The notes under the pieces were generated by a model. That model was not told where the DNA came from. It searched no databases and saw nothing but the letters and a program-made list of their open reading frames with translations. Of a stretch of 30,424 nucleotides of DNA, positions 13,174 through 24,700 are shown one piece after another. A program made the position numbers and the translations under genes. This DNA comes from a virus (Duplodnaviria > Caudoviricetes). Within the stretch, counting starts at the first letter, position 1, and each line of letters opens with the position of its first letter. The stretch covers positions 1 to 30,424 of the IMG/VR virus record IMGVR_UViG_3300020045_005324; one strand, given 5' to 3'.

Positions 13174-13719
13174 TTATTTAATTTTTACCCTAACCTCATA
13201 CCCGTCACCTACTATTTTATAACTTCTAATATTTAATTCTTTTGCAACTTCTATACTCCATTCAATTGATCCGTGAACATCGTTATTCATTCGATGCGAC
13301 ATAGTAGATTGTCTTACTTTTGTTTTTTCGCAATACTCTTTTTGAGTAATTTTTGCTTTTTCTAATACTGTTTTTATTGGATTGTCATAAAGATTTTCAC
13401 TAAAAACACGCTCTTTTTTATATGCGCAATCAACTCTACTTGGTATTGCTGAATTAAATAAAATGTGATTTTCATTATAAAATAAAATGTGAAATCTTTC
13501 TCTTTCAAAAGCTATTTGTGGCAAACATTTTTCTAATATTTCAAAAATATGATTGTCAAAACCATATTTTTTTATCGATATAGAAAGATTTTTATTAGAA
13601 GATATGCACTTTTTATGGTTTTCAAATCTTTTTTCAATATCAAAACTTTTACCAATATATATTTCTCCTATTGGATTTGTGATTTTATAAACTCCACAAA
13701 CTTTATTAAATTTACTCAT
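13174..13719 (-). CDS. GIY-YIG endonuclease domain fused to an XRE-like HTH
   Basis: GVYKITN...IYIGKS..I.KR..H...E.E...N; C-terminal LEKAKITQKEYCEKTKVRQSTMSHRMN. Confidence 0.8.
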   Translation of the reverse strand: MSKFNKVCGVYKITNPIGEIYIGKSFDIEKRFENHKKCISSNKNLSISIKKYGFDNHIFEILEKCLPQIAFERERFHILFYNENHILFNSAIPSRVDCAYKKERVFSENLYDNPIKTVLEKAKITQKEYCEKTKVRQSTMSHRMNNDVHGSIEWSIEVAKELNIRSYKIVGDGYEVRVKIK

Positions 13720-13838
13720 ATTTTTTTTGGTTTTAATTTCTTAATATATTCTCTAACTTCTAAAATTCTACACGGATGACACATTATATTGTATCTTTTT
13801 CTACCTGTAGCTGGCCTGCCTTTTGCTTTTTTGTTCAT
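13716..13838 (-). CDS. Small basic DNA-binding peptide (40 aa, MNKKAKGRPATGRKRY...)
   Basis: Read by eye; first ORF after the leftward promoter; ATGA-coupled to the GIY-YIG gene. Confidence 0.6.
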   Translation of the reverse strand: MNKKAKGRPATGRKRYNIMCHPCRILEVREYIKKLKPKKI

Positions 13839-14516: not shown

Positions 14517-14768
14517 ATGAAAACAATATACAACACTTACGTAGCGATGGAATCGCAGGAACAATGCGATAGAATGAAACAATTATGTATTGATAATGGA
14601 TTGCCGATTTGGAATAATAGTACGGCTTTTGTTTTTTGCATTGAACAAAATGTGTTTATGATGACTTCAAAAGAATTTTTTATTTGTATAATTACAGATA
14701 AAGAAAAAAAGGAATATTTAAAAATAACCGAATCAGAATTTATCGAACTTTTAAAAACTACAAAATGA
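14517..14768 (+). CDS. Hypothetical protein
   Basis: Operon packing. Confidence 0.7.
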   Translation: MKTIYNTYVAMESQEQCDRMKQLCIDNGLPIWNNSTAFVFCIEQNVFMMTSKEFFICIITDKEKKEYLKITESEFIELLKTTK

Positions 14769-14980
14769 ATCCAGACGACTACATCCAAGGAACATTCAGA
14801 AATGACAATCCAACAAACATCGAAGAAATAGAATGCGAGCCACAAACAGAACTTGAAGCACAACAAGAATGGAATCAAGAACTGCTATCTAAAATAAACA
14901 AAACAAAAGCAATTATTTTAGAATTTGAAACATCTCCAAATATGGTATTAATACAATTAAAAAAACTTTATAAATTATGA
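14765..14980 (+). CDS. Hypothetical protein
   Basis: ATGA coupling. Confidence 0.65.
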   Translation: MNPDDYIQGTFRNDNPTNIEEIECEPQTELEAQQEWNQELLSKINKTKAIILEFETSPNMVLIQLKKLYKL

Positions 14981-15159
14981 TTCTGCTAGCCACGTTAATA
15001 CTTTCAATATTCCTGTTTTTAGCCTTAATTGCGCTATATATTTCCTTTGAAATAGGAATGGAACTCAACGAAGAAAACGAAGCGTTACACGAATGTTTAG
15101 AGGAGTTGGAAAAAGAAATAAAATATTACATCAATGAAAACAATAAGTCAAATAGCTAA
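14977..15159 (+). CDS. Membrane-anchored coiled-coil protein
   Basis: N-terminal TM segment, acidic helix. Confidence 0.6.
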   Translation: MILLATLILSIFLFLALIALYISFEIGMELNEENEALHECLEELEKEIKYYINENNKSNS

Positions 15160-15403
15160 AGAGGCAGGGGTAACTTATAGAGATGTTTATTCTATAATTA
15201 TTGCAAATAGAATAACCCCGGTAAGTTATAAGGAGCATGAAAGATATAGATTATACGCTCAAATACAAATAGATTTAATTCATAAAGTACTATATTTTGA
15301 ACGTAAATGTAATGTAGTTATTTTAGAAAGCTCAATGAATAAAAAAGAAGCACCGGATTACGACTCATTTAGAAAATTTAAAAAAGAAACTTATACAAGA
15401 TGA
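15134..15403 (+). CDS. HTH DNA-binding protein
   Basis: TISQIAKEAGVTYRDV at the N-terminus. Confidence 0.65.
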   Translation: MKTISQIAKEAGVTYRDVYSIIIANRITPVSYKEHERYRLYAQIQIDLIHKVLYFERKCNVVILESSMNKKEAPDYDSFRKFKKETYTR

Positions 15404-16236
15404 AAAAAGCACAAATATTTAATAATCATTTTCAGAATTTTAAAACTTATGCAATTCCAAAAGCGCAATTAATTATTGCCGATATTCCTTATAATCTTGG
15501 AAATAATGCATATGCTTCTAATCCTGCATGGTACAAAGACGGAGATAATTCAAACGGAGAAAGCGCATTGGCTGGAAAAAGTTTTTTTGATACGGACGAA
15601 GATTTTAGGCCTGCTGAATTTATGCACTTTTGCTCAACTATGCTTAAACCTGAAAAGAAAACGGTAAAAGTTGAAGGTGAAGCAAGGCAAAAAGGAGACA
15701 GCCCTTGTATGATTGTATTTTGCGCATTTGACCAACAAATGGATTTGATACAATTAGCAAAAAGATACGGTCTTAACAACTACATAAATTTAGTTTTTCG
15801 TAAAAACTTTTCTGCACAAGTTTTAAAAGCAAATATGAAAGTTGTAGGAAATTGTGAATATGCGCTTATATTTTATCGTGAAAAATTACCAAAGTTCAGA
15901 AATAAAGGCAAAATGATTTTTAATTGTATGGATTGGCCTAGAGATAATGAAAGTGAAAAAATTCACCCAACACAAAAGCCTGTACAGTTATTAAAAAGAT
16001 TAATCGAAATTTTTACAGACGAGGGCGATGTAGTTATTGATCCTTGTTGCGGAAGTGGTTCGACATTAATTGCTGCACAAGAATTAAAAAGAAAGGGTTT
16101 TGGATTTGAAATAAAAAAACCGTTTCATAAAGCTGCTGAAAATTGGATAAATGAGGAATATCAAAAATTAAGTGATATTGAAGAATTTGGATTTGCAAAA
16201 ACATTAATTAATAAAACACATTCAACACTATTTTAA
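15400..16236 (+). CDS. DNA methyltransferase (N6-A/N4-C, beta class)
   Basis: DIPY catalytic motif precedes HPTQKP and DPCCGSGST SAM-binding motif. Confidence 0.9.
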   Translation: MKKAQIFNNHFQNFKTYAIPKAQLIIADIPYNLGNNAYASNPAWYKDGDNSNGESALAGKSFFDTDEDFRPAEFMHFCSTMLKPEKKTVKVEGEARQKGDSPCMIVFCAFDQQMDLIQLAKRYGLNNYINLVFRKNFSAQVLKANMKVVGNCEYALIFYREKLPKFRNKGKMIFNCMDWPRDNESEKIHPTQKPVQLLKRLIEIFTDEGDVVIDPCCGSGSTLIAAQELKRKGFGFEIKKPFHKAAENWINEEYQKLSDIEEFGFAKTLINKTHSTLF

Positions 16237-16237
16237 G

Positions 16238-16486
16238 ATGAACAAAAAGCAAAAAATAAACATGCATAAATTCTATGCGATAATGTCACTTTTACAGGAT
16301 AATTTAGACGATCTAAAAGTAACAACACCACGAATGCAATTCTTAAAAGACAATCTTAGCGAGTTTTGCGAAATACTGAACAATGAATGTGCTAATACGT
16401 ACACAATTCAAAAGACTACTTATTTTGTTGAAATGACAAATAAAATTGATACGATTGTTAGAAAATATTTTAATCCAGAGATGTAA
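16238..16486 (+). CDS. Hypothetical protein
   Basis: Operon packing. Confidence 0.7.
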   Translation: MNKKQKINMHKFYAIMSLLQDNLDDLKVTTPRMQFLKDNLSEFCEILNNECANTYTIQKTTYFVEMTNKIDTIVRKYFNPEM

Positions 16487-16536
16487 TTTAATTTAATTCT
16501 AAATACTTTTATCACTACATTTACAAAACGTTAAAC

Positions 16537-16618
16537 GGATTTGGTCAGAAATCCTAAACTAAAAAATCATTGATTCCCTTCTGACCTTACGACTGACCTC
16601 GTATGTTGTTGGAAGGGA
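16537..16618 (+). ncRNA. Structured 5' leader, kissing-loop copy A
   Basis: GGATTT[GGTCAG]AAATCC and TCCCTTC..TACGA[CTGACC]TCGTA..GAAGGGA; TACATTTA promoter-like motif at 16516. Confidence 0.7.
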
Positions 16619-16637
16619 TTTTTAAATTTTAGGAATT

Positions 16638-17171
16638 ATGAAGGAAACAGAAATTGACAGTATGAAATATCGAAAATCTACGCATTTAGCGGGTATCGAT
16701 GTTGATGCAATTGTTACTGATAAAGGCAATTGTATTTTAACGATTAAAGAAGCGTATTACGATACAAATGTTGATGTATCAGGAAACAAAACAAATGGTT
16801 ATTTTATAGAATTTGTAGAAGATGTTAAGCCAATGGTGGCTAATTCTGGAAATCGTAAAATAATAAACGACATCGTAAAAGAAAAACTTGGATGCACTGC
16901 TGCAGAAAGTAGAATGTTACCAAATTGGAAAGGGTTACAAATTGACTTATATTTTGATCCAAGCATTAAAATGATGGGTAAGGTTACTGGAGGAATTAAA
17001 GTTAAGCCAGTTGTTAAAATGGTTATTAGTGACGTGAACGCATTAGCTATTTTAAATGCTTCAGCTACTATTGCGGAACTTCAAACTAATTGGGGTAAAT
17101 TAAACGCAAATGAAAAGAATTTACCAACTGCAATGGCTTTAAAAGAAAAACTTAAAACTGATTTAAAATAG
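16638..17171 (+). CDS. Putative ssDNA-annealing/recombination protein
   Basis: Positional inference (upstream of exonuclease and SSB-like gene); helical C-terminal EL...W..L tail. Confidence 0.5.
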   Translation: MKETEIDSMKYRKSTHLAGIDVDAIVTDKGNCILTIKEAYYDTNVDVSGNKTNGYFIEFVEDVKPMVANSGNRKIINDIVKEKLGCTAAESRMLPNWKGLQIDLYFDPSIKMMGKVTGGIKVKPVVKMVISDVNALAILNASATIAELQTNWGKLNANEKNLPTAMALKEKLKTDLK

Positions 17172-17196
17172 AAATAATATTCGTATATTTACTGTA

Positions 17197-17266
17197 AATC
17201 CGCCAAGATTAAGAACTTAACAATTCCCTTTCTTTTATCACTTGGCGGTATAATTGAAGGGGAATT
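17197..17266 (+). ncRNA. Structured 5' leader, kissing-loop copy B
   Basis: AATC[CGCCAA]GATT and AATTCCCTTTC..AC[TTGGCG]GT..GAAGGGGAATT; TATATTTA at 17184. Confidence 0.65.
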
Positions 17267-17274
17267 TACTTTTT

Positions 17275-17976
17275 ATGATAGGAATTTATAAAATTACAAG
17301 TCCGTCAAATCGCGTTTATATTGGACAAAGCATTGATATTGAAAAAAGACTTATGTACTATAAAAACGGACATTCAAAACAACAAGTTAGATTATTTAAT
17401 TCATTAAAAAAATATGGATTTAGCAATCATAAGTTTGAAGTATTATGTGAATGCGAAACGTCAGAACTAAATGAAAAAGAAAGATATTTTCAAGACTTGT
17501 TTAATTGTGTTGAAACTGGATTAAACTGTAAGCTGACAAAAAGTATCGATAGAAAAGGATCGTTAAGTAAAGAAACGAAGCTAAAAATGTCAATTATCAG
17601 AAAAGGTAAAAAGCAATCTTCAGAAACTTGTTTAAAAAAATCTAAAAATATGACTGGAAATAAAAATCCAATGTTTGGTAAGTTTGGAGAATTAAACCCA
17701 TTTTTTGGCAAAAAGCACACAAAAGAAAGTTTAAATAAGATGTCTCCTTTTAAAAAAGGACATAAAATATGTTTAGGTAGAATTTTATCTAACGAAACAA
17801 AAAATAAGATGGGGGTCAGTAAGCGTAAAAAAGTAATAAATACAGACACAAACGAAATACACATATCTGCTAAATCTTTATCAAAAGAAATAGGAATGAA
17901 TTATAATACCTTAAGAAATCAATTAAACGGATCTCATGAAAATAAAACAAAATATAAATACTATGAAAATAATTAA
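17275..17976 (+). CDS. Free-standing GIY-YIG homing endonuclease with NUMOD3-like repeats
   Basis: MIGIYKITSPS.RVYIGQS; S.ETK.KMS and NP.FGKKH repeats; ATG 17275. Confidence 0.9.
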   Translation: MIGIYKITSPSNRVYIGQSIDIEKRLMYYKNGHSKQQVRLFNSLKKYGFSNHKFEVLCECETSELNEKERYFQDLFNCVETGLNCKLTKSIDRKGSLSKETKLKMSIIRKGKKQSSETCLKKSKNMTGNKNPMFGKFGELNPFFGKKHTKESLNKMSPFKKGHKICLGRILSNETKNKMGVSKRKKVINTDTNEIHISAKSLSKEIGMNYNTLRNQLNGSHENKTKYKYYENN

Positions 17977-18664
17977 CGTCGAACAGGGAACTGATGAATG
18001 GCTGTATATTAGATGGGCTAAAATTGGCGGCACAAGGTCAAGTGGGTTGTTTGTAAAATCAGACACATTATTAGAAGAAATATTATCTGAATTGGTAGAG
18101 GATTTTAATGTTTCAGATAACTATATTTCTTTTGAAATGATGCAAGGCAAAGAAAAAGAGCCAGAGGCACGCAAAGCTTTGAATGCTTATTTAGGAATCG
18201 AACTTAAAGAAGTTGGATGGCTGCAATGTGAAGAAATACCGTTGTTAGGCATTTCACCTGATGGGATAACAGAATGCGAAACAATAAGCGCTGAAATTAA
18301 ATGTCCTGCTGCAAAAAAACATTTAAAAACTATATTATCAAATGAAATTCCAAGCGATAATATACACCAATGCCTTCATTATTTTACGGTTAATCCTAAA
18401 TTAGAAAAGCATTACTTTTGTAGTTACAGACCAGAGAATAATTTCAAGTCTATTTTTGTAAAAGAATTAAATATAGATAGTTTAATTGATTTAGGCATAA
18501 CTTATAAGGGCAAAATTAAAGAGGATAGGGGGTTAGGAATTAAAGATTATGTTTGTGAAATTAAAGACATTCGAACCATAAAAGAATGGGTTAAATTAGC
18601 TAAATCAAATGCTAAAGAATTACAAATACAAATAGACGAAAAAATAGAACAATTAAAATTTTAA
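17963..18664 (+). CDS. YqaJ/lambda-exonuclease family protein
   Basis: QGT.EW...R, G...E..AR, SPDG, EIKCP, Q....F; ATG 17963 preferred. Confidence 0.9.
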   Translation: MKIINVEQGTDEWLYIRWAKIGGTRSSGLFVKSDTLLEEILSELVEDFNVSDNYISFEMMQGKEKEPEARKALNAYLGIELKEVGWLQCEEIPLLGISPDGITECETISAEIKCPAAKKHLKTILSNEIPSDNIHQCLHYFTVNPKLEKHYFCSYRPENNFKSIFVKELNIDSLIDLGITYKGKIKEDRGLGIKDYVCEIKDIRTIKEWVKLAKSNAKELQIQIDEKIEQLKF

Positions 18665-18668
18665 AATT

Positions 18669-18938
18669 ATGGAAATCACAGGAAAAATTAAATTTATCGA
18701 TGTCACAAAAGAAGTAGGATCGAACAACTTCAAAAAGCGTGACTTAGTAGTTATCACAGACGAGTCTTACCCACAACACATTTTAATCCAATTTGTAAAA
18801 GATAAATGTGAACTACTTGACAAATATGCAGTTGGTCAGGACGTAACGATTGGTATAAATTTACGGGGTAATGAGTGGCAAAACCCACAAGGTGAAACCG
18901 TTTATTTCAATACTATTCAAGGTTGGAGTATTAAATAA
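18669..18938 (+). CDS. DUF3127 OB-fold (SSB-like) protein
   Basis: MEITGKI...FKKR.LV..TDE.YPQ.I..QF..DK...INLRG.EW...YFNTIQGW. Confidence 0.85.
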   Translation: MEITGKIKFIDVTKEVGSNNFKKRDLVVITDESYPQHILIQFVKDKCELLDKYAVGQDVTIGINLRGNEWQNPQGETVYFNTIQGWSIK

Positions 18939-18942
18939 AAAT

Positions 18943-18977
18943 AAAAAGCACGTGATTAATTTTGCGTGCTATTTTTT
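18943..18977 (+). terminator. Intrinsic terminator
   Basis: AGCACGT / GCGTGCT stem followed by a T-run. Confidence 0.55.
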
Positions 18978-19010
18978 ATTTAAAAATAATTAAACTTAAA
19001 CAAAAAAAAT

Positions 19011-20231
19011 ATGTCAAATCAAAGAAAAAGTTCACAATGGAATTGTTATGATGACAAAATTACAAAAATATTAAACGAAAATAATGAAATAGAGGCAATA
19101 GAAGTAGTAAAAAAATTAGGGGTAAATACAGAAAGAAAGCAGTTTTCAAGATATATAAAAAGGAATAAAAGCCGATTATTAGATACAAATGAAGGGATTT
19201 ATGACGCTTGCGAAAGCATAAATGTAGATTTTACGTCAGCTAAAAACCTTTGGATAAAAACAAAAAACAAAGATGGTAGTGGGGTAAGCGGTTTTGTTGT
19301 AAATCCAAATTACGTTCCGCAAGTTGAAGAAGATAAAATTGTTAAAGAAATTGACTTTTTGTCTATATTTAAGGATAAAGTTGAGCCTATATTTTTAGGC
19401 TTGGAAAGTAACCGATCAAGTCAAGCTTTATTTGACAGATTGGTAATTACTGACATTCACATAGGAATGGATGTAAATAAAGATGGGTACGCTCTATATG
19501 ACGGAGAGTGGAACGAGAAGGTTTTGTTCGAAAGACTTAGAGAATTAATTAAACACACACTTGAAAATAAGAAATCAAATATGCTATTAATTCACGAATT
19601 AGGAGACTATGTTGACGGATGGGACGGAGAAACGACAAGAGGAGGTCATAAACTTCCGCAGAACATGGATAACCAAGAAATGTTTGATGTAGGATTGAAA
19701 TTCAAGATTGCATTAGTAGATAATTTAGTTAAGCACTTTGACAAGATACAATTCGTTAATATATGTAATGACAATCACGCGGGTAGTTTTGGGTATATAG
19801 TTAACAGCGCATTTAAAGCCTATATAGAGCTTAAATATCCGAATAAAATAGAGGTAATTAACCAACGAAAATTCATTGACCATTACATAGTTAAAAACCG
19901 TTGTTTCATATTGACACATGGAAAAGACGATAAGAGTTTAAAATTTGGATTTAAGCCTATTTTAGATTCACCACAAATAGAAAAAATAAAGAATTACATT
20001 GATGAATACAAATTATATAAATACCAAATAGAATTTAGTAAAGGAGATTCGCACCAGTTAATGTTTGATTTTACAAGTAGTACCGCGTTTGAATATCAGA
20101 ATTTTGGAGCGTTTAGTTTACCGTCAGATTGGGTTAAAACTAACTTTAAAAATACATTAAGTTGTTTTACGCATTTCAATTATTTTGAAAATCAAAAGGG
20201 AATAAATAATTATATTTTTAAGAAAATGTAA
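19011..20231 (+). CDS. Calcineurin-like metallophosphoesterase
   Basis: DIHIG, LGD.VDG, NDNH, THG, GDSH motifs. Confidence 0.8.
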   Translation: MSNQRKSSQWNCYDDKITKILNENNEIEAIEVVKKLGVNTERKQFSRYIKRNKSRLLDTNEGIYDACESINVDFTSAKNLWIKTKNKDGSGVSGFVVNPNYVPQVEEDKIVKEIDFLSIFKDKVEPIFLGLESNRSSQALFDRLVITDIHIGMDVNKDGYALYDGEWNEKVLFERLRELIKHTLENKKSNMLLIHELGDYVDGWDGETTRGGHKLPQNMDNQEMFDVGLKFKIALVDNLVKHFDKIQFVNICNDNHAGSFGYIVNSAFKAYIELKYPNKIEVINQRKFIDHYIVKNRCFILTHGKDDKSLKFGFKPILDSPQIEKIKNYIDEYKLYKYQIEFSKGDSHQLMFDFTSSTAFEYQNFGAFSLPSDWVKTNFKNTLSCFTHFNYFENQKGINNYIFKKM

Positions 20232-20243
20232 CAAAATAATATT

Positions 20244-20453
20244 ATGGGAGATATAACAAAATGTACCGGAATTAATTGCAAGGTTAAAGAGTCTTGTAAT
20301 AGGTTTTTAGATAAGCCTAACGAATTTAGACAATCATATTTTACAGAACCTCCACTTGATGGAAATGGAGATTGTGAAATGTATTGGGGAGTATCTCAAG
20401 AAAGTATTTTTAACTATTTAAAAAAAATAACAAATGGCAAAAGTAACGATTGA
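20244..20453 (+). CDS. Small Cys-rich phage protein
   Basis: DITKC.G..C..K..C.RF...QSYF...C..Y. Confidence 0.7.
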   Translation: MGDITKCTGINCKVKESCNRFLDKPNEFRQSYFTEPPLDGNGDCEMYWGVSQESIFNYLKKITNGKSND

Positions 20454-20667
20454 ATTTGATTTAGATAAAGATAATGATTTAAGAGATTATAATCTTTTTA
20501 ATAATTCTAATGGAATGTATAATTCTTTATTTGAAATATCTAAAAACCTAAAAAAGAAAGTAGAATTCCAGATAGAAGAAGATGATAACGGAGCTTTAGA
20601 TTTAGTTTTTAATATTATTTCTGAAATTCTTGAAGAAAATAATGTAATAATAGATAGATTAGAATAA
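20434..20667 (+). CDS. Hypothetical protein
   Basis: Operon packing. Confidence 0.7.
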   Translation: MAKVTIEFDLDKDNDLRDYNLFNNSNGMYNSLFEISKNLKKKVEFQIEEDDNGALDLVFNIISEILEENNVIIDRLE

Positions 20668-20684
20668 ATTTTTGTATATTTGCT

Positions 20685-20768
20685 TATCTTATTGGTGGAG
20701 CACTAAGATACTGAAAGAAATTTTTAAAAAGCCTTACGATGCGGAACTCCACTTCCAATTCGTAGGGC
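20685..20768 (+). ncRNA. Structured 5' leader, kissing-loop copy C
   Basis: TATCTTA.TG[GTGGAG]CA.TAAGATA and GCCTTACGA..GGAA[CTCCAC]TTCC..TCGTAGGGC; consensus TATATTTG promoter at 20675. Confidence 0.75.
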
Positions 20769-20779
20769 ATTTTTATTTT

Positions 20780-22324
20780 ATGAAAAAAACACTTTACCCA
20801 CATCAAAAAGAATTTCTTGACGAAATACTTTTAAAAATTAAAGAAGTAGATTCTGTTTGTTGCCAGTTAAGTACTGGAGGAGGAAAAACTGTAGTATTTA
20901 CAGAACTGGTTAAAATATTAGATTCAAAGACTTTAATTTTAGTTGATAGTATTGATCTTGTAAATCAAACTTTTGATACTTTTAAAAAACAAGGGTTGGA
21001 CGTTGGTTGTATTTTGGCAGGTAATACAAAAATACCAGAAAACAAAATAATTGTTGCAATGGTAAAAAGCCTATGGAACAGACGTAAAAAAATGCCTTTG
21101 TTTCAATATTGTATCATTGATGAATGCCATATTTGGGAGTTCAATAAACTATTTAAATTTTTGCCAAACTGTAAACGAATTGGATTTACAGCCACTCCAG
21201 TAAGATTGAAACGAAATAAAGTAGATTACGAATATAGCGAAGTTGAAACAATGTCACAATGGTATGATGATATTGTATGTGGCAAACCTATAAGTTGGTT
21301 AATGGAACACGGCTATCTTATTCCAGAAAAAAACGAATACATTGATTTTGATAGTTCCGGATTAAAAACAGATGCAAGTGGAGAATTTACAGCATCAAGT
21401 TTAAAAGAAGTATTTCAAAGTGAAACTTATAAAAATGCACTTCGCAAAACTTTTGATAAATTATGCGACGGTAAAAAGACATTACTTTTTACGTCGTCAA
21501 CTGAAACGAATGCTATTTATGCAGAATTATTTAAGGATAAAAATGTTAAAACTTATGATTCGGTAAACAATAATCCAAACGAGCGTGATGATATTGTAGA
21601 ATGGTTTAGAACTACGCCAGACGCACTTTTGATTAATACCGGATGTTTCACAAAGGGTTTTGATGTTTGCGATGTTGAGGTTATTTTAATGGCTCGAGCA
21701 ACTAAAAGCCTTTCTTTATGGATTCAAATTGCTGGGCGTGGCGCGCGTAAAACTTCAAAAATAGAAAAGCCTTATTTTTTATTAATCGATGGAGGGAATA
21801 ATAATGAAGAGCACGGAATTTTTAGTTTTGATAGGGATTGGAAAAAAATATTTTTTGACAAGCAAAGGAAATCATATTTAAAAGATATTTACGAATGTGA
21901 GGAATGTGGTTTTAATTTTGAGAAAAAAGAAAAAGTTTGTCCAAATTGCGGGTGTGAAATTCCAGAAAAAGAACCCCCGGAAGAACAGGAACAAAAGGAG
22001 TTTGTAATTAAAGGACAAAAAAATAAAATATTACCTCCTACTTTAGATTTAGAATTTCACATTATTAAGGGTCATTCTAAATTTGAAACATTAAAGATTT
22101 TAAGAATGAAGTGGATTACTTTTTTATGTAAATTAGACCTCCCATTTAATGACTTTCTATGGCACGAAAATAAAGGCAATTTCCAAATGAGATTTAATAA
22201 ATTTTTAAGGCCGTTATTTTTTAAAATATTAGGATCAATTTTGAAAGATGGAAAACACACAAAATACAATACCGTTTGCGAAAAAATATTAATCGATACT
22301 AAAAAGAAAAAATATGAAATTTAG
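20780..22324 (+). CDS. SF2 DEAD/DEAH-box helicase with Zn ribbon
   Basis: TGGGKT, DECH, TATP, GFD, Q..GRG.R, CEEC..CPNC; ATG 20780. Confidence 0.92.
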   Translation: MKKTLYPHQKEFLDEILLKIKEVDSVCCQLSTGGGKTVVFTELVKILDSKTLILVDSIDLVNQTFDTFKKQGLDVGCILAGNTKIPENKIIVAMVKSLWNRRKKMPLFQYCIIDECHIWEFNKLFKFLPNCKRIGFTATPVRLKRNKVDYEYSEVETMSQWYDDIVCGKPISWLMEHGYLIPEKNEYIDFDSSGLKTDASGEFTASSLKEVFQSETYKNALRKTFDKLCDGKKTLLFTSSTETNAIYAELFKDKNVKTYDSVNNNPNERDDIVEWFRTTPDALLINTGCFTKGFDVCDVEVILMARATKSLSLWIQIAGRGARKTSKIEKPYFLLIDGGNNNEEHGIFSFDRDWKKIFFDKQRKSYLKDIYECEECGFNFEKKEKVCPNCGCEIPEKEPPEEQEQKEFVIKGQKNKILPPTLDLEFHIIKGHSKFETLKILRMKWITFLCKLDLPFNDFLWHENKGNFQMRFNKFLRPLFFKILGSILKDGKHTKYNTVCEKILIDTKKKKYEI

Positions 22325-24485
22325 CTTTTACCAAAATATAAAAGACCTCAACAAAACTGATATTGATTTAGAAAATTATATTGATATTGTTAAAAACGGG
22401 AAATATCAGGATTTAGTTTTAACAGCTAGATCAGTTAAAAAAGACGTTCAGAAATACAAAGAACTCAAAAACCAAATGCCAGTTATAACGGGTTCGGCAG
22501 TTATGAACCAAGGCAGTAAAAATGCTTCAAATATTTTAGAGTTGAATGGTTTAATTGTAGTTGATATTGATGACGATGTAGATTTACAATTGTTAAATAA
22601 AATTAATGAGGATAAATATACTTTTGTTTCTCATCGTTCTTTTGGAGGTGATGGGCTTTGTGTATTTATAAAAATTAATCCTAACAAATTTTTAGAATCT
22701 TTTAACGAAATTGGACAATATTACTGGGACACCTTCAATATTATGATTGATCAAAGTTGTAAAAATAAAAACCGTTTGCGTTTTTTATCTTATGACCCGT
22801 ATATTTTTCAAAATGAAAAAGCGGTTAAATTTATTGCAAAAACAAAAGAAAAAAAGATAGTAAAGAAAGATTTTATTTTTGTTAAGGATGATTTTAGTCA
22901 AATTATAGATAAATTAAAAGGAATTGATCTTTGCCAAGATGACTATAAAAGATATTGCGACATTGGTTTTGCAATAGGCTCAAAGTTTGGTGATTCTGGA
23001 TTAAATTATTTTAAGGCAATTTGTCAAAATGGATCTAAATATGTAGAAAAAGATATTGAAAAACATTATAAAAACTTTTGCAAAGGTGGAAATATTACAA
23101 TAGGTACATTTTATCATTACGTAAAAATCGAAGGAATAGAAGTTTATTCTGAGCTTACAAAGAAAACTATTGCTACTGTGGCAATGCAAAAAACACAGGG
23201 CACACCTACAATTGAAAGTGTAAAAAAACATATTACTGAGGTTTTAAAATTAGAAACCCCAACAGATGAATTAATTTTAGATATTATTAATTCAAAGATT
23301 GATTTACAAGTTGAGAGCGAAGAAACCGAAGTAAATCAATTAAAAAACTTTATTCACGAAAATTACAACCCATACAGGGATTCAATCACTAATGAAATTT
23401 TTATAAACGATAAAATTTTAGATGACATAAAATTAAATTCAATTTACTTTTCTGCTAAAAACTGCCTTGATTTTAACGTGAATAAATCAGACGTTCGCGA
23501 TATGATAAACAGCGAGGCAACTCAGGTTATTAATCCATTAAATGAATTTTTCAGCAATAAAGAGTTTGAAACTGGAAATATCGAAAAATATGCAGATTGC
23601 ATTTATCCAAATTCAGATTATAATCGTTGGGCTTTTAAAAAGTGGCTTATTGGTTCAGTTCATAATTGGATTAGTCCACACCACGAAACAAAAGTAAGCC
23701 CATTGACACTTGTTCTTTGTGGACAAAAACAAGGTACCGGAAAGACTTCTTTTTTTAGAAACTTATTGCCAAAAGATTTAAGAAAATATCTAATTGAGCA
23801 CCGAATTGATGCAAAAGATAAAGACAGTATTTACAATCTTGTAAAGGGACTTTTAGTGTTAGATGATGAATTTGGAGGTTTAGCCACAAAAGATGTGAAA
23901 GACTTCAAAAAAATAGCCGATGCAAACCAAATTGACATACGCTTGCCTTATTCCGCTTTTTATTCAAAAATGAAACGTAAAGCCTCTTTATGTGGAACAA
24001 GTAATGAGCGTGATGTTTTAAAAGATGTTACCGGAAATAGACGTATTTTACCTATTAACGTTGAAAGTATCGATTATGATCGAATGATAAAAATTAATAC
24101 GGATGATCTTTGGCGAGAAGTTTTTGATTTGTACCGTAAAGATTTTGATTGGAAAATATATAGTAGTGAAGATATTGAATATTTAAAAAGCAATACGTCG
24201 TTTAACCTTGAAGTTATGCCAGTAGAAGAGGTATTTTTTGATACCTACTCTTTGGAAGAAAACGGAAAGCACACCGAGGAACAAATTTTAAACCAAGGGC
24301 AAATTTTACACAAGTTAAATGCGGTAATGTCTTTTAATATTTCAAAATATGATGTTAAGGATATACTTACAAAAAACAAAATAATTTACAAATCTTATAA
24401 AAGAAATGGAAAAGTAGTTTTCGGTTTAAAATTATTTTGCGAACCTGTATTTAATCAAAATGTAAGTAATGAACCACCTTTTTAG
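22314..24485 (+). CDS. Primase-helicase (BT4734/VirE N-terminal, PriCT-2, VirE/VapE ATPase)
   Basis: DID, S..G.G, R.RF.SYDP; GQKQGTGKTSF Walker A; LDDE Walker B; TGNRR. Confidence 0.88.
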   Translation: MKFSFYQNIKDLNKTDIDLENYIDIVKNGKYQDLVLTARSVKKDVQKYKELKNQMPVITGSAVMNQGSKNASNILELNGLIVVDIDDDVDLQLLNKINEDKYTFVSHRSFGGDGLCVFIKINPNKFLESFNEIGQYYWDTFNIMIDQSCKNKNRLRFLSYDPYIFQNEKAVKFIAKTKEKKIVKKDFIFVKDDFSQIIDKLKGIDLCQDDYKRYCDIGFAIGSKFGDSGLNYFKAICQNGSKYVEKDIEKHYKNFCKGGNITIGTFYHYVKIEGIEVYSELTKKTIATVAMQKTQGTPTIESVKKHITEVLKLETPTDELILDIINSKIDLQVESEETEVNQLKNFIHENYNPYRDSITNEIFINDKILDDIKLNSIYFSAKNCLDFNVNKSDVRDMINSEATQVINPLNEFFSNKEFETGNIEKYADCIYPNSDYNRWAFKKWLIGSVHNWISPHHETKVSPLTLVLCGQKQGTGKTSFFRNLLPKDLRKYLIEHRIDAKDKDSIYNLVKGLLVLDDEFGGLATKDVKDFKKIADANQIDIRLPYSAFYSKMKRKASLCGTSNERDVLKDVTGNRRILPINVESIDYDRMIKINTDDLWREVFDLYRKDFDWKIYSSEDIEYLKSNTSFNLEVMPVEEVFFDTYSLEENGKHTEEQILNQGQILHKLNAVMSFNISKYDVKDILTKNKIIYKSYKRNGKVVFGLKLFCEPVFNQNVSNEPPF

Positions 24486-24490
24486 CCGAA

Positions 24491-24700
24491 AAGGTAATAA
24501 GGTAAGAAAAAGGTAATAAAAAAATATTACCTCCTAAGCCAAATGACAATAAGACTTAAACCCAAAGGTAATAAGGTAAGGTAAATTTATTATAAACTTC
24601 TACAAATAATTTAATTTTACATATATTACGCATATTATGAATTTTTATATTTTTTCTAAACTCTTTTAAAATAAAAATATTACCCCTAAAAACATTACCT
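24491..24700. repeat. Putative replication origin with AGGTAA iterons
   Basis: Six direct AGGTAA and three inverted TTACC(T/C) copies around an AT-rich core, right after the primase-helicase. Confidence 0.7.

What the first reader, a model, noticed from the sequence alone, without database searches (positions are those of the whole stretch)
16516..16640. Kissing-loop leader RNA, copy A (before the putative annealing protein)
Seen: promoter-like TACATTTA, then hairpin GGATTT-[GGTCAG]-AAATCC, an A-rich linker, and a long hairpin TCCCTTC...TACGA-[CTGACC]-TCGTA...GAAGGGA ending about 20 nt before the ATG. The two 6-nt loops are exact complements. A second CTGACC at 16581 offers an alternative pairing, which suggests a possible conformational switch.
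Basis: seen in the sequence. Interest (0 to 1): 0.75.

Follow-up and report, generated by a model that had tools for sequence, protein, structure and literature searches.

The report
Kissing-loop terminator leader in Bacteroidota phage
In front of a likely DNA-recombination gene of this phage lies a predicted promoter and a predicted two-hairpin leader RNA whose loops are exact complements; related phages keep the match with many different letters, so the loops likely pair and likely act as an uncatalogued RNA-only gate on a predicted transcription-stop hairpin.

Summary
Confirmed. At 16516-16623 lie a Bacteroidota -7-like box, hairpin 1 (loop GGUCAG), an A-rich linker, and a long hairpin 2 (loop CUGACC) followed by a U-run, 19 nt before an ATG. 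The window holds two more copies with other matching loops: B at 17184 (GIY-YIG nuclease) and C at 20675 (helicase).

In relatives, hairpin 1 covaries. The slot before the helicase carries the element in 25 of 30 loci, with 10 different loop pairs; three loop pairs also occur in swapped order. The second CTGACC is a plausible antiterminator partner, but only in this loop family: 19 of 20 against 0 of 24.

Best reading: a portable promoter plus kiss-gated attenuator for early genes. No RNA data were available, so termination and the direction of control are inferred. No Rfam family matches. It resembles pT181 attenuators and the P4 CI RNA but lacks a separate antisense gene and a third site. 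"Annealing protein" is unproven. This scan noted the same design earlier on other genomes.

The parts
16516..16523 (+). -7-like promoter box of copy A (TAnnTTTG consensus, last base A); predicted start of transcription 16528
   Evidence: the box lies at -12 to -5 in Flavobacterium (PMC9723704, passages); 12 of 18 aligned relatives have the full consensus at this place; no TTTG -33 motif seen
16537..16554 (+). Hairpin 1, 6-bp stem
   Evidence: all cells paired, 4 of 6 pairs with two-sided changes in 18 sequences
16543..16548 (+). Seed loop GGUCAG
   Evidence: invariant in 18 of 18 aligned copies while the stem changes
16555..16574 (+). A-rich linker, long enough to let the two loops meet within one molecule
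   Evidence: about 84 A needed against about 132 A available for this geometry (rough estimate on L006, same lengths)
16579..16586 (+). Second site (site 1) in the 5' arm of hairpin 2; can form 8 bp with the seed and the 3' arm of hairpin 1; candidate antiterminator partner
16575..16618 (+). Hairpin 2: 11-bp G/C-based lower stem, interior loop, 5-bp apical stem; predicted intrinsic terminator hairpin
16593..16598 (+). Apical loop CUGACC, exact complement of the seed
16619..16623 (+). U-run after hairpin 2
   Evidence: family-wide tail statistics
16638..17171 (+). 177-aa protein, phrog_21613 (unknown function); beta-rich N-terminal domain with weak similarity to DNA-binding folds; sits in the slot next to the YqaJ exonuclease and SSB
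17184..17274 (+). Copy B: -7-like box, hairpin 1 17197-17210 (loop CGCCAA), hairpin 2 17222-17266 (loop UUGGCG), U-rich tail
17275..17976 (+). GIY-YIG/NUMOD3 homing endonuclease gene behind copy B (233 aa from the ATG)
20675..20779 (+). Copy C: consensus -7 box, hairpin 1 (seed GUGGAG 20695-20700), hairpin 2 (loop CUCCAC 20747-20752), U-rich tail
20780..22324 (+). SF2 helicase gene behind copy C (514 aa)

Best explanation
The stretch is a predicted promoter followed by a predicted two-hairpin leader RNA with complementary loops, one of a family of portable cassettes in front of early genes of Bacteroidota phages; the loops likely pair, and that pairing likely decides whether the second hairpin stops transcription before the gene. 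Shown: the anatomy, the covariation of stems and loops, three copies with different loop codes in this genome, and presence or absence in front of orthologous genes. Inferred steps: (1) host RNA polymerase starts near 16528 and hairpin 1 folds first, exposing the seed; (2) a free seed pairs inside the growing RNA, in this family first with site 1, which takes away part of the terminator's 5' arm, so polymerase can read through; (3) a seed held in a loop-loop kiss leaves site 1 free, the terminator zips up, and a short RNA of about 95 nt is released; (4) most likely the kissing loop can also come from short leaders released earlier, which would give a burst of expression after DNA entry followed by shut-off, each loop code acting alone. 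Step 4 is the weakest.
For: HP1 covariation: 21 cells with two-sided changes against 4.8 +/- 1.8 in shuffles, 0 of 500 (18 sequences). Loop pair covaries between families: 25 of 30 helicase loci carry the element with 10 different seed pairs, while 5' and 3' halves from different families reach the same threshold in 6 of 492 cross pairs. Three seed pairs also occur in swapped order: L467/L441, L447/L462, L440/L461. A scan blind to hairpins and tail finds exactly 3 sites in the window, all on the + strand directly before genes and all with hairpin 2 and a U-tail. Tail in 33 elements chosen without a tail criterion: mean 5.4 T in the first 8 nt, 32 of 33 with 4 or more, against 2.8 T in the 8 nt before the hairpin. 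The + strand folds better than the - strand in 36 of 44. Hairpin 1 starts within -1 to +2 of the predicted +1 in 30 of 40. Site 1: 140 of 140 cells pair, with G.U-type changes only; 19 of 20 family members beat arm shuffles; it dominates prefixes 16587-16611 and gives way to the terminator from 16617. The three window codes are orthogonal: cognate -10.1 to -14.6, non-cognate -5.2 to +0.5 kcal/mol. Precedent for kissing-triggered termination: pT181 (PMC4878617, passages). Precedent for a leader-derived RNA acting on its own transcript: P4 CI and IsrK (PMC4825925, passages).
Against: No transcript ends, starts or probing data support any step. The simple terminator scan did not list hairpin 2, and the window's tail is only five U then AAA. 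Bacteroidota regions before start codons are AT-rich anyway, and hairpin 2 ends only 8-27 nt before the ATG in 40 of 42 cases, so control of translation is open. Within the GGUCAG family the kissing helix never varies, which says nothing by itself, and site 1 shows no two-sided change, with an uninformative shuffle control, 500 of 500. Site 1 is absent from 24 of 24 elements of other families, so step 2 must work otherwise there. A released leader would tend to kiss itself, which would hide the loop that step 4 needs. The folding is equilibrium-only and cannot model the kiss. The box in copy A deviates from consensus at its last base. Linker length did not track hairpin length in the full set, rho -0.10, n=19.
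Confidence: 0.58

Rival explanations
1. The kiss is a fixed cis structure that compacts the 5' end and tunes mRNA stability or ribosome access; hairpin 2 does not terminate and the U-run is just part of an AT-rich translation start region.
For: Hairpin 2 ends 8-27 nt before the ATG in 40 of 42 elements. Intramolecular kissing is geometrically possible in 17 of 19 family representatives. Free drift of the loop letters and swapped order fit a pairing that only has to work in cis. The terminator scan is negative.
Against: The T-rich tail is directional and starts right at the G/C-closed stem base. The cassette carries its own promoter-like box. A second seed-binding site is conserved in the GGUCAG family, which a fixed structure would not need.
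Confidence: 0.2
2. The main product is the short terminated RNA, which acts in trans as a lock-and-key immunity or exclusion RNA against incoming related phages or mobile nuclease genes that carry the same loop code, like c4 of P1 or CI of P4.
For: At least 10 loop codes at one orthologous slot. Elements sharing a locus had different codes in every case seen: the window, Freya_1, L007, L012, L440, L441, L442, L451 (one duplicate count is the same element twice). Copy B travels with the homing endonuclease gene. P4 precedent (PMC4825925, passages).
Against: No third pairing site downstream: 2 of 40, and 0 of 18 in this family. No other target of 9 nt or more in the window. No C4 match in Rfam. 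No integrase seen among 33 proteins scanned (record about 81% complete), and neither pattern was found in 401 Flavobacterium genomes searched, so a lysogen making the RNA is not evident. Codes are inherited with the slot, so their difference within a genome is weak evidence.
Confidence: 0.12
3. The folded leader is a binding site for a protein: RNA polymerase (put-like antiterminator) or the downstream DNA-binding protein (autogenous control as for T4 gene 32, recalled).
For: Two hairpins directly after an early promoter, as for HK022 put (PMC9378689, passages). Copy A and several relatives precede genes of the recombination module.
Against: put depends on specific bases and on two adjacent stems gripping the beta' zinc-binding domain; here the stems are 14-37 nt apart and nearly every base varies between families. 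The same GGUCAG leader precedes five different proteins, and the same 177-aa gene has leader A, leader B or none.
Confidence: 0.07
4. The loop match is chance or a DNA-level repeat without RNA function.
For: 12 of 40 shuffles give some loop-loop hit when composition is ignored. Single-sequence shuffle tests are weak, 4 of 25 below p 0.02. Loop complementarity is strand-symmetric.
Against: Covariation of stems and of loop pairs across families, G.U pairs that favour the + strand, and a fixed position between a promoter-like box and a start codon.
Confidence: 0.03

Closest known systems
Antisense-RNA transcription attenuators of the pT181 type
   Same: A 5' sensing hairpin, a kissing interaction, an antiterminator tied to that hairpin, and an intrinsic terminator; hairpins with interior loops (PMC4878617, passages).
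   Different: pT181 uses a separate, fully complementary antisense RNA from the opposite strand. Here the complementary loop is the tip of the terminator hairpin itself, the match is 6-9 nt, and no antisense promoter box is enriched (4 of 40 against 9 of 60 background windows).
Phage P4 CI RNA with seqA/seqC; P1/P7 c4 antisense RNA (Rfam RF01695)
   Same: A short RNA from the promoter-proximal leader carries a sequence complementary to the 5' end of its own transcript, in front of early phage genes (PMC4825925, passages).
   Different: No Rfam match; no downstream third site; two hairpins in about 95 nt, with the terminator inside the element. That CI and c4 are larger processed cloverleaf RNAs and that P4 termination is Rho-dependent is recalled, not read here, apart from the processing of CI.
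IsrK of Gifsy-1
   Same: A terminated short isoform and a read-through isoform from one promoter; the short one can act on the long one (PMC4825925, passages).
   Different: IsrK activates translation through a long pairing with a downstream uORF. No such downstream complement is seen here.
HK022 put RNA
   Same: Two stem-loops right after an early phage promoter, acting without a phage protein (PMC9378689, passages).
   Different: put binds RNA polymerase through specific bases and suppresses termination; here sequence is free, the loops are complementary, and hairpin 2 is itself terminator-like.

Membership tests
Any Rfam 15 family (incl. C4, c4-2, Flavo-1, Bacteroidales-1) | Covariance-model score at or above the gathering threshold | tested here: not met
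   0 matches in the window and in 18 related loci; 5 weak unrelated matches far below threshold at E up to 10
P4 CI / P1 c4 leader-derived antisense systems | Sequence in a loop complementary to a site at the 5' end of the same transcript | tested here: met
P4 CI / P1 c4 leader-derived antisense systems | Second target downstream of the antisense RNA (seqC; a2/b2) | tested here: not met
   exact hexamer within 300 nt downstream in 2 of 40 elements, 0 of 18 of this family
P4 CI / P1 c4 leader-derived antisense systems | Processed stable RNA that acts in trans and confers immunity | not testable with these tools
   needs RNA data and a phage-host system
pT181-type antisense attenuator | Intrinsic terminator hairpin with U-tract between promoter and gene | tested here: inconclusive
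   family tails average 5.4 T in 8 nt; the simple terminator scan does not list it; no 3'-end data
pT181-type antisense attenuator | Antiterminator pairing between the 5' hairpin and the terminator stem | tested here: met
   met for the GGUCAG family, 19 of 20, by prediction only; not seen in 24 of 24 other elements
pT181-type antisense attenuator | Separate antisense RNA from a convergent promoter | tested here: not met
   antisense TAnnTTTG within 200 nt in 4 of 40 against 9 of 60 background windows; 15 of 40 against 28 of 60 with the A variant; other promoter types not covered
HK022 put | Two adjacent stems with conserved bases | tested here: not met
   linkers of 14-37 nt in correctly parsed elements and free sequence between families
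HK022 put | Binding to the RNA polymerase beta' zinc-binding domain and processive antitermination | not testable with these tools
   needs biochemistry
Single-strand annealing proteins (for the 177-aa product) | Sequence or fold match to RecT, Erf, Sak or Sak4 | tested here: inconclusive
   no Pfam or PDB sequence hit; best fold match over the beta domain is PrgE, Z 5.2, rmsd 4.9, 94 residues; gene position next to the YqaJ exonuclease fits

The most novel reading that the evidence does not exclude
A protein-free, self-contained timer and self/non-self code for phage early genes: each cassette makes its own short RNA whose terminator tip kisses the 5' hairpin of later transcripts and shuts them off, and phages run several orthogonal loop codes in one genome and swap them between genes and lineages.
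Probability: 0.3. Interest if true: 0.85.

Novelty: new variant of a known kind. Interest (0 to 1): 0.7.

Why it matters
Transcription control in phages of Bacteroidota is poorly described. This is a compact, uncatalogued RNA family that sits at the head of replication, recombination and nuclease genes, three times in this genome and twice in the cultured Polaribacter phage Freya_1; a B-type copy also lies in cultured Flavobacterium elemo phages, so it can be tested now. If the kiss gates the terminator, it is an attenuator that needs no ligand, leader peptide, protein or separate antisense gene, and nature supplies more than ten orthogonal loop codes, something that was hard to engineer for pT181 (PMC4878617). 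It also corrects gene starts: ORF callers run upstream into copies B and C.

Tried and rejected
RNA evidence: no RNA holder was listed for window 15000-22500, so no reads were laid; this is no evidence either way.

Searches that gave little: the loop-blind pattern on genome contigs was too loose; none of 120 rows reached p<0.02 and they were treated as noise (the middle of the output was cut). The first A-type pattern was mostly chance: 4 convincing elements among 7 rows kept of 120. Copy A has no match among cultured phages. The A and B patterns were not found in 401 Flavobacterium genomes searched (positive controls 92, 93); exact patterns would miss other loop codes.

Linker-versus-hairpin length: no correlation over 19 representatives (rho -0.10, p 0.68); rho 0.52, p 0.04 after dropping 3 mis-parsed rows. 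That is post hoc and not used as support.

Rows dropped before counts: of 49 parsed elements, 2 were dropped as a GC-rich locus and an antisense reading, 3 as mis-parsed (44 left), and 4 more lacked 200 nt of downstream DNA (40 left).

Protein: no PDB sequence hit; no Foldseek hit at E<=0.001 in PDB; the wide fold search was filled by the C-terminal helices.

Literature: ten searches listed no paper describing this family. The library lacks most subscription papers, and I read no supplements; the motif lists of Weinberg 2017 (PMC5737381) and the structured-5'-UTR table of PMC9723704 may bear on novelty. No covariance model was built.

Full report
Setting. The window is a 30.4-kb linear virus record, estimated 81% complete, with portal, terminase, endolysin, helicase, primase, YqaJ exonuclease, SSB and two GIY-YIG nucleases. 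A named homolog of the gene behind the finding is from Flavobacterium, and copy B matches cultured Polaribacter and Flavobacterium phages, so the host is most likely a flavobacterium (inference).

Observation. All parts are present as described. RNAfold returns hairpin 1 and the long hairpin 2 with both loops open, z about -3. A strict scan finds this as the only perfect loop-loop site in the window; 12 of 40 shuffles give some hit and 0 of 40 give one with G/C-rich loops. The Flavobacterium sigma-A box TAnnTTTG lies at -12 to -5 (PMC9723704, passages; consensus also in PMC7366714, passages). That puts the predicted start at 16528, 9 nt before hairpin 1. Rfam has no match in the window or in 18 related loci.

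More copies in the window. A scan asking only for a -7-like box, a G/C-rich word near the predicted 5' end and its complement 35-95 nt on finds three sites, all on the + strand and all directly before genes: A at 16516, B at 17184 (GIY-YIG/NUMOD3 nuclease) and C at 20675 (helicase). Each has a long second hairpin and a U-rich tail, neither of which was asked for. The same scan finds two in Polaribacter phage Freya_1. The three window codes pair well with themselves (-10.1 to -14.6 kcal/mol) and poorly with each other (-5.2 to +0.5).

The GGUCAG family. 22 distinct copies, the window's included, precede three protein types: 177 aa, 172 aa (a distant relative) and 71 aa. Two more precede a 213-aa unknown protein and a Sak4-like AAA protein. 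Most came from patterns blind to the loops: 15 of 25 distinct viral rows and 8 of 12 metagenome rows were this family, 3 and 1 had other matching loops, and 7 and 3 had none. In 18 aligned copies hairpin 1 is fully paired with two-sided changes at 4 of 6 pairs; over the whole structure 21 cells change on both sides against 4.8 +/- 1.8 in shuffles (0 of 500; this control ignores relatedness). The six kissing pairs never vary here.

The loop pairing covaries between families. Before the orthologous helicase gene, 25 of 30 loci carry the element, with 10 different seed pairs. One further locus has an A/U-richer pair below the threshold, one is truncated and three have none. Halves from different families match in 6 of 492 cross pairs. 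Three pairs occur in both orders, with the seed of one element being the terminator loop of another: L467/L441, L447/L462, L440/L461. This is the strongest evidence that the pairing, not the letters, is selected. The + strand folds better in 36 of 44 elements, as expected for RNA with G.U pairs.

It is a portable cassette. Of 18 relatives of the 177-aa gene, 3 have the A leader, 2 the B leader and 13 none (the script flagged 4 and missed L012, which searches show). L005 (B) and L006 (A) share the DNA upstream of the box and the last bases before the ATG but differ in between. Copy B appears together with the nuclease gene in L010 and is absent where the exonuclease follows directly. The element is therefore not specific to the 177-aa gene. 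That protein remains unassigned: 592 homologs, a confident model (mean pLDDT 83), and only weak fold matches such as PrgE, Z 5.2, rmsd 4.9 over 94 residues. That PrgE is an OB-fold protein is recalled.

Hairpin 2 looks like a terminator. In 33 elements chosen without a tail criterion, the 8 nt after the outermost G-C pair hold 5.4 T on average (32 of 33 have 4 or more), against 2.8 T just before the hairpin. Against this, the simple terminator scan does not list it, probably because of the interior loop; the window's tail has five U; and the hairpin ends 8-27 nt before the ATG in 40 of 42 cases, so it could act on translation.

The second CTGACC. It can form 8 bp with the seed and the 3' arm of hairpin 1 and overlaps the terminator's 5' arm. 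In 18 aligned copies all 140 cells pair and all changes are G.U-compatible, with no two-sided change. It beats arm shuffles in 19 of 20 members of this family and in 0 of 24 elements of other families. In equilibrium prefix folding, hairpin 1 holds to 16584, the seed/site-1 helix dominates from 16587 to 16611, and hairpin 1 plus the full terminator win from 16617 (-25.9 against -12.9 kcal/mol); the kiss itself is not modelled.

Mechanism. I commit to a kiss-gated attenuator (0.58). A free seed pairs inside the nascent RNA and hinders the terminator; a seed held by a kissing loop lets it form. The loop may come in cis or from short leaders released earlier, which would turn the gene on at entry and off later. 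The linker is long enough for a cis kiss in 17 of 19 representatives; self-kissing of released leaders is the main difficulty for the trans step. Rivals are a fixed structure acting on translation or stability (0.20), an immunity RNA against related elements (0.12), a protein-binding site (0.07) and chance (0.03).

Comparison. It works most like the pT181 attenuator (PMC4878617, passages) and the leader-derived RNAs of P4 and Gifsy-1 (PMC4825925, passages), but is a member of neither: no enriched antisense box (4 of 40 against 9 of 60) and no third site (2 of 40), and no Rfam match. It differs from HK022 put in spacing and sequence freedom (PMC9378689, passages). Passages of Weinberg 2010 (PMC2864571) and Weinberg 2017 (PMC5737381) showed no such motif and no use of the word kissing in their main texts; their supplements were not read. 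Ten literature searches listed no description. Exact A and B patterns were not found in 401 Flavobacterium genomes searched.

Earlier notes. I logged my reading before any look-up (which returned nothing by sequence). A word search then showed eight unchecked notes of this scan that describe the same design on other genomes. They agree with this report but are not independent evidence, and I did not examine their loci.

Verdict. A real, conserved, uncatalogued RNA element; new variant of antisense-type attenuation; function inferred, not shown. Interest 0.70.

Noticed in passing
window 20672-20779: The 550-aa helicase ORF called from a TTG at 20672 runs through copy C; relatives of about 514 aa point to the ATG at 20780 as the true start. 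Likewise the nuclease ORF from TTG 17254 most likely starts at ATG 17275.
   Followed up: yes
window 13534-13659 and 17317-17445: The two longest inverted repeats (80-85% complementary) are the coding starts of two paralogous GIY-YIG genes on opposite strands; only the rightward one has a kissing leader.
   Followed up: partly
window 13716-13838 (- strand): A small basic leftward ORF of about 40 codons, read by eye, follows a consensus -7 box and overlaps the start of the GIY-YIG gene; it may be a small DNA-binding regulator at the divergent promoter region.
   Followed up: no
window 14977-16637 versus L002-L004: In three close relatives the gene matching window 14765-14980 abuts the 177-aa gene directly, so a block of about 1.7 kb with a DNA methyltransferase and leader A is extra in the window.
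   Followed up: partly
window 24490-24596: Short GGTAA-rich repeats after the primase gene (family D14); similar repeats appear in L451, L462 and L463. Possible replication origin.
   Followed up: no
window 18947-18970: An ordinary intrinsic-terminator-like hairpin after the SSB gene closes the unit that starts at leader A.
   Followed up: no
L443:93, L444:3451, L446:8209, L467:9651: Elements with long linkers (26-30 nt) carry an extra small hairpin in the linker, which brings the single-stranded length back to 14-17 nt.
   Followed up: partly
L146, L153, L214, L219, L222: B-code elements in which the seed has no hairpin 1 stem, suggesting that a single-stranded seed can also work.
   Followed up: no
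L441:854-1495, L442:130-963, L278:1021-1539: Leader A stays while the gene behind it is exchanged among different recombination-module proteins, including a Sak4-like ATPase.
   Followed up: partly
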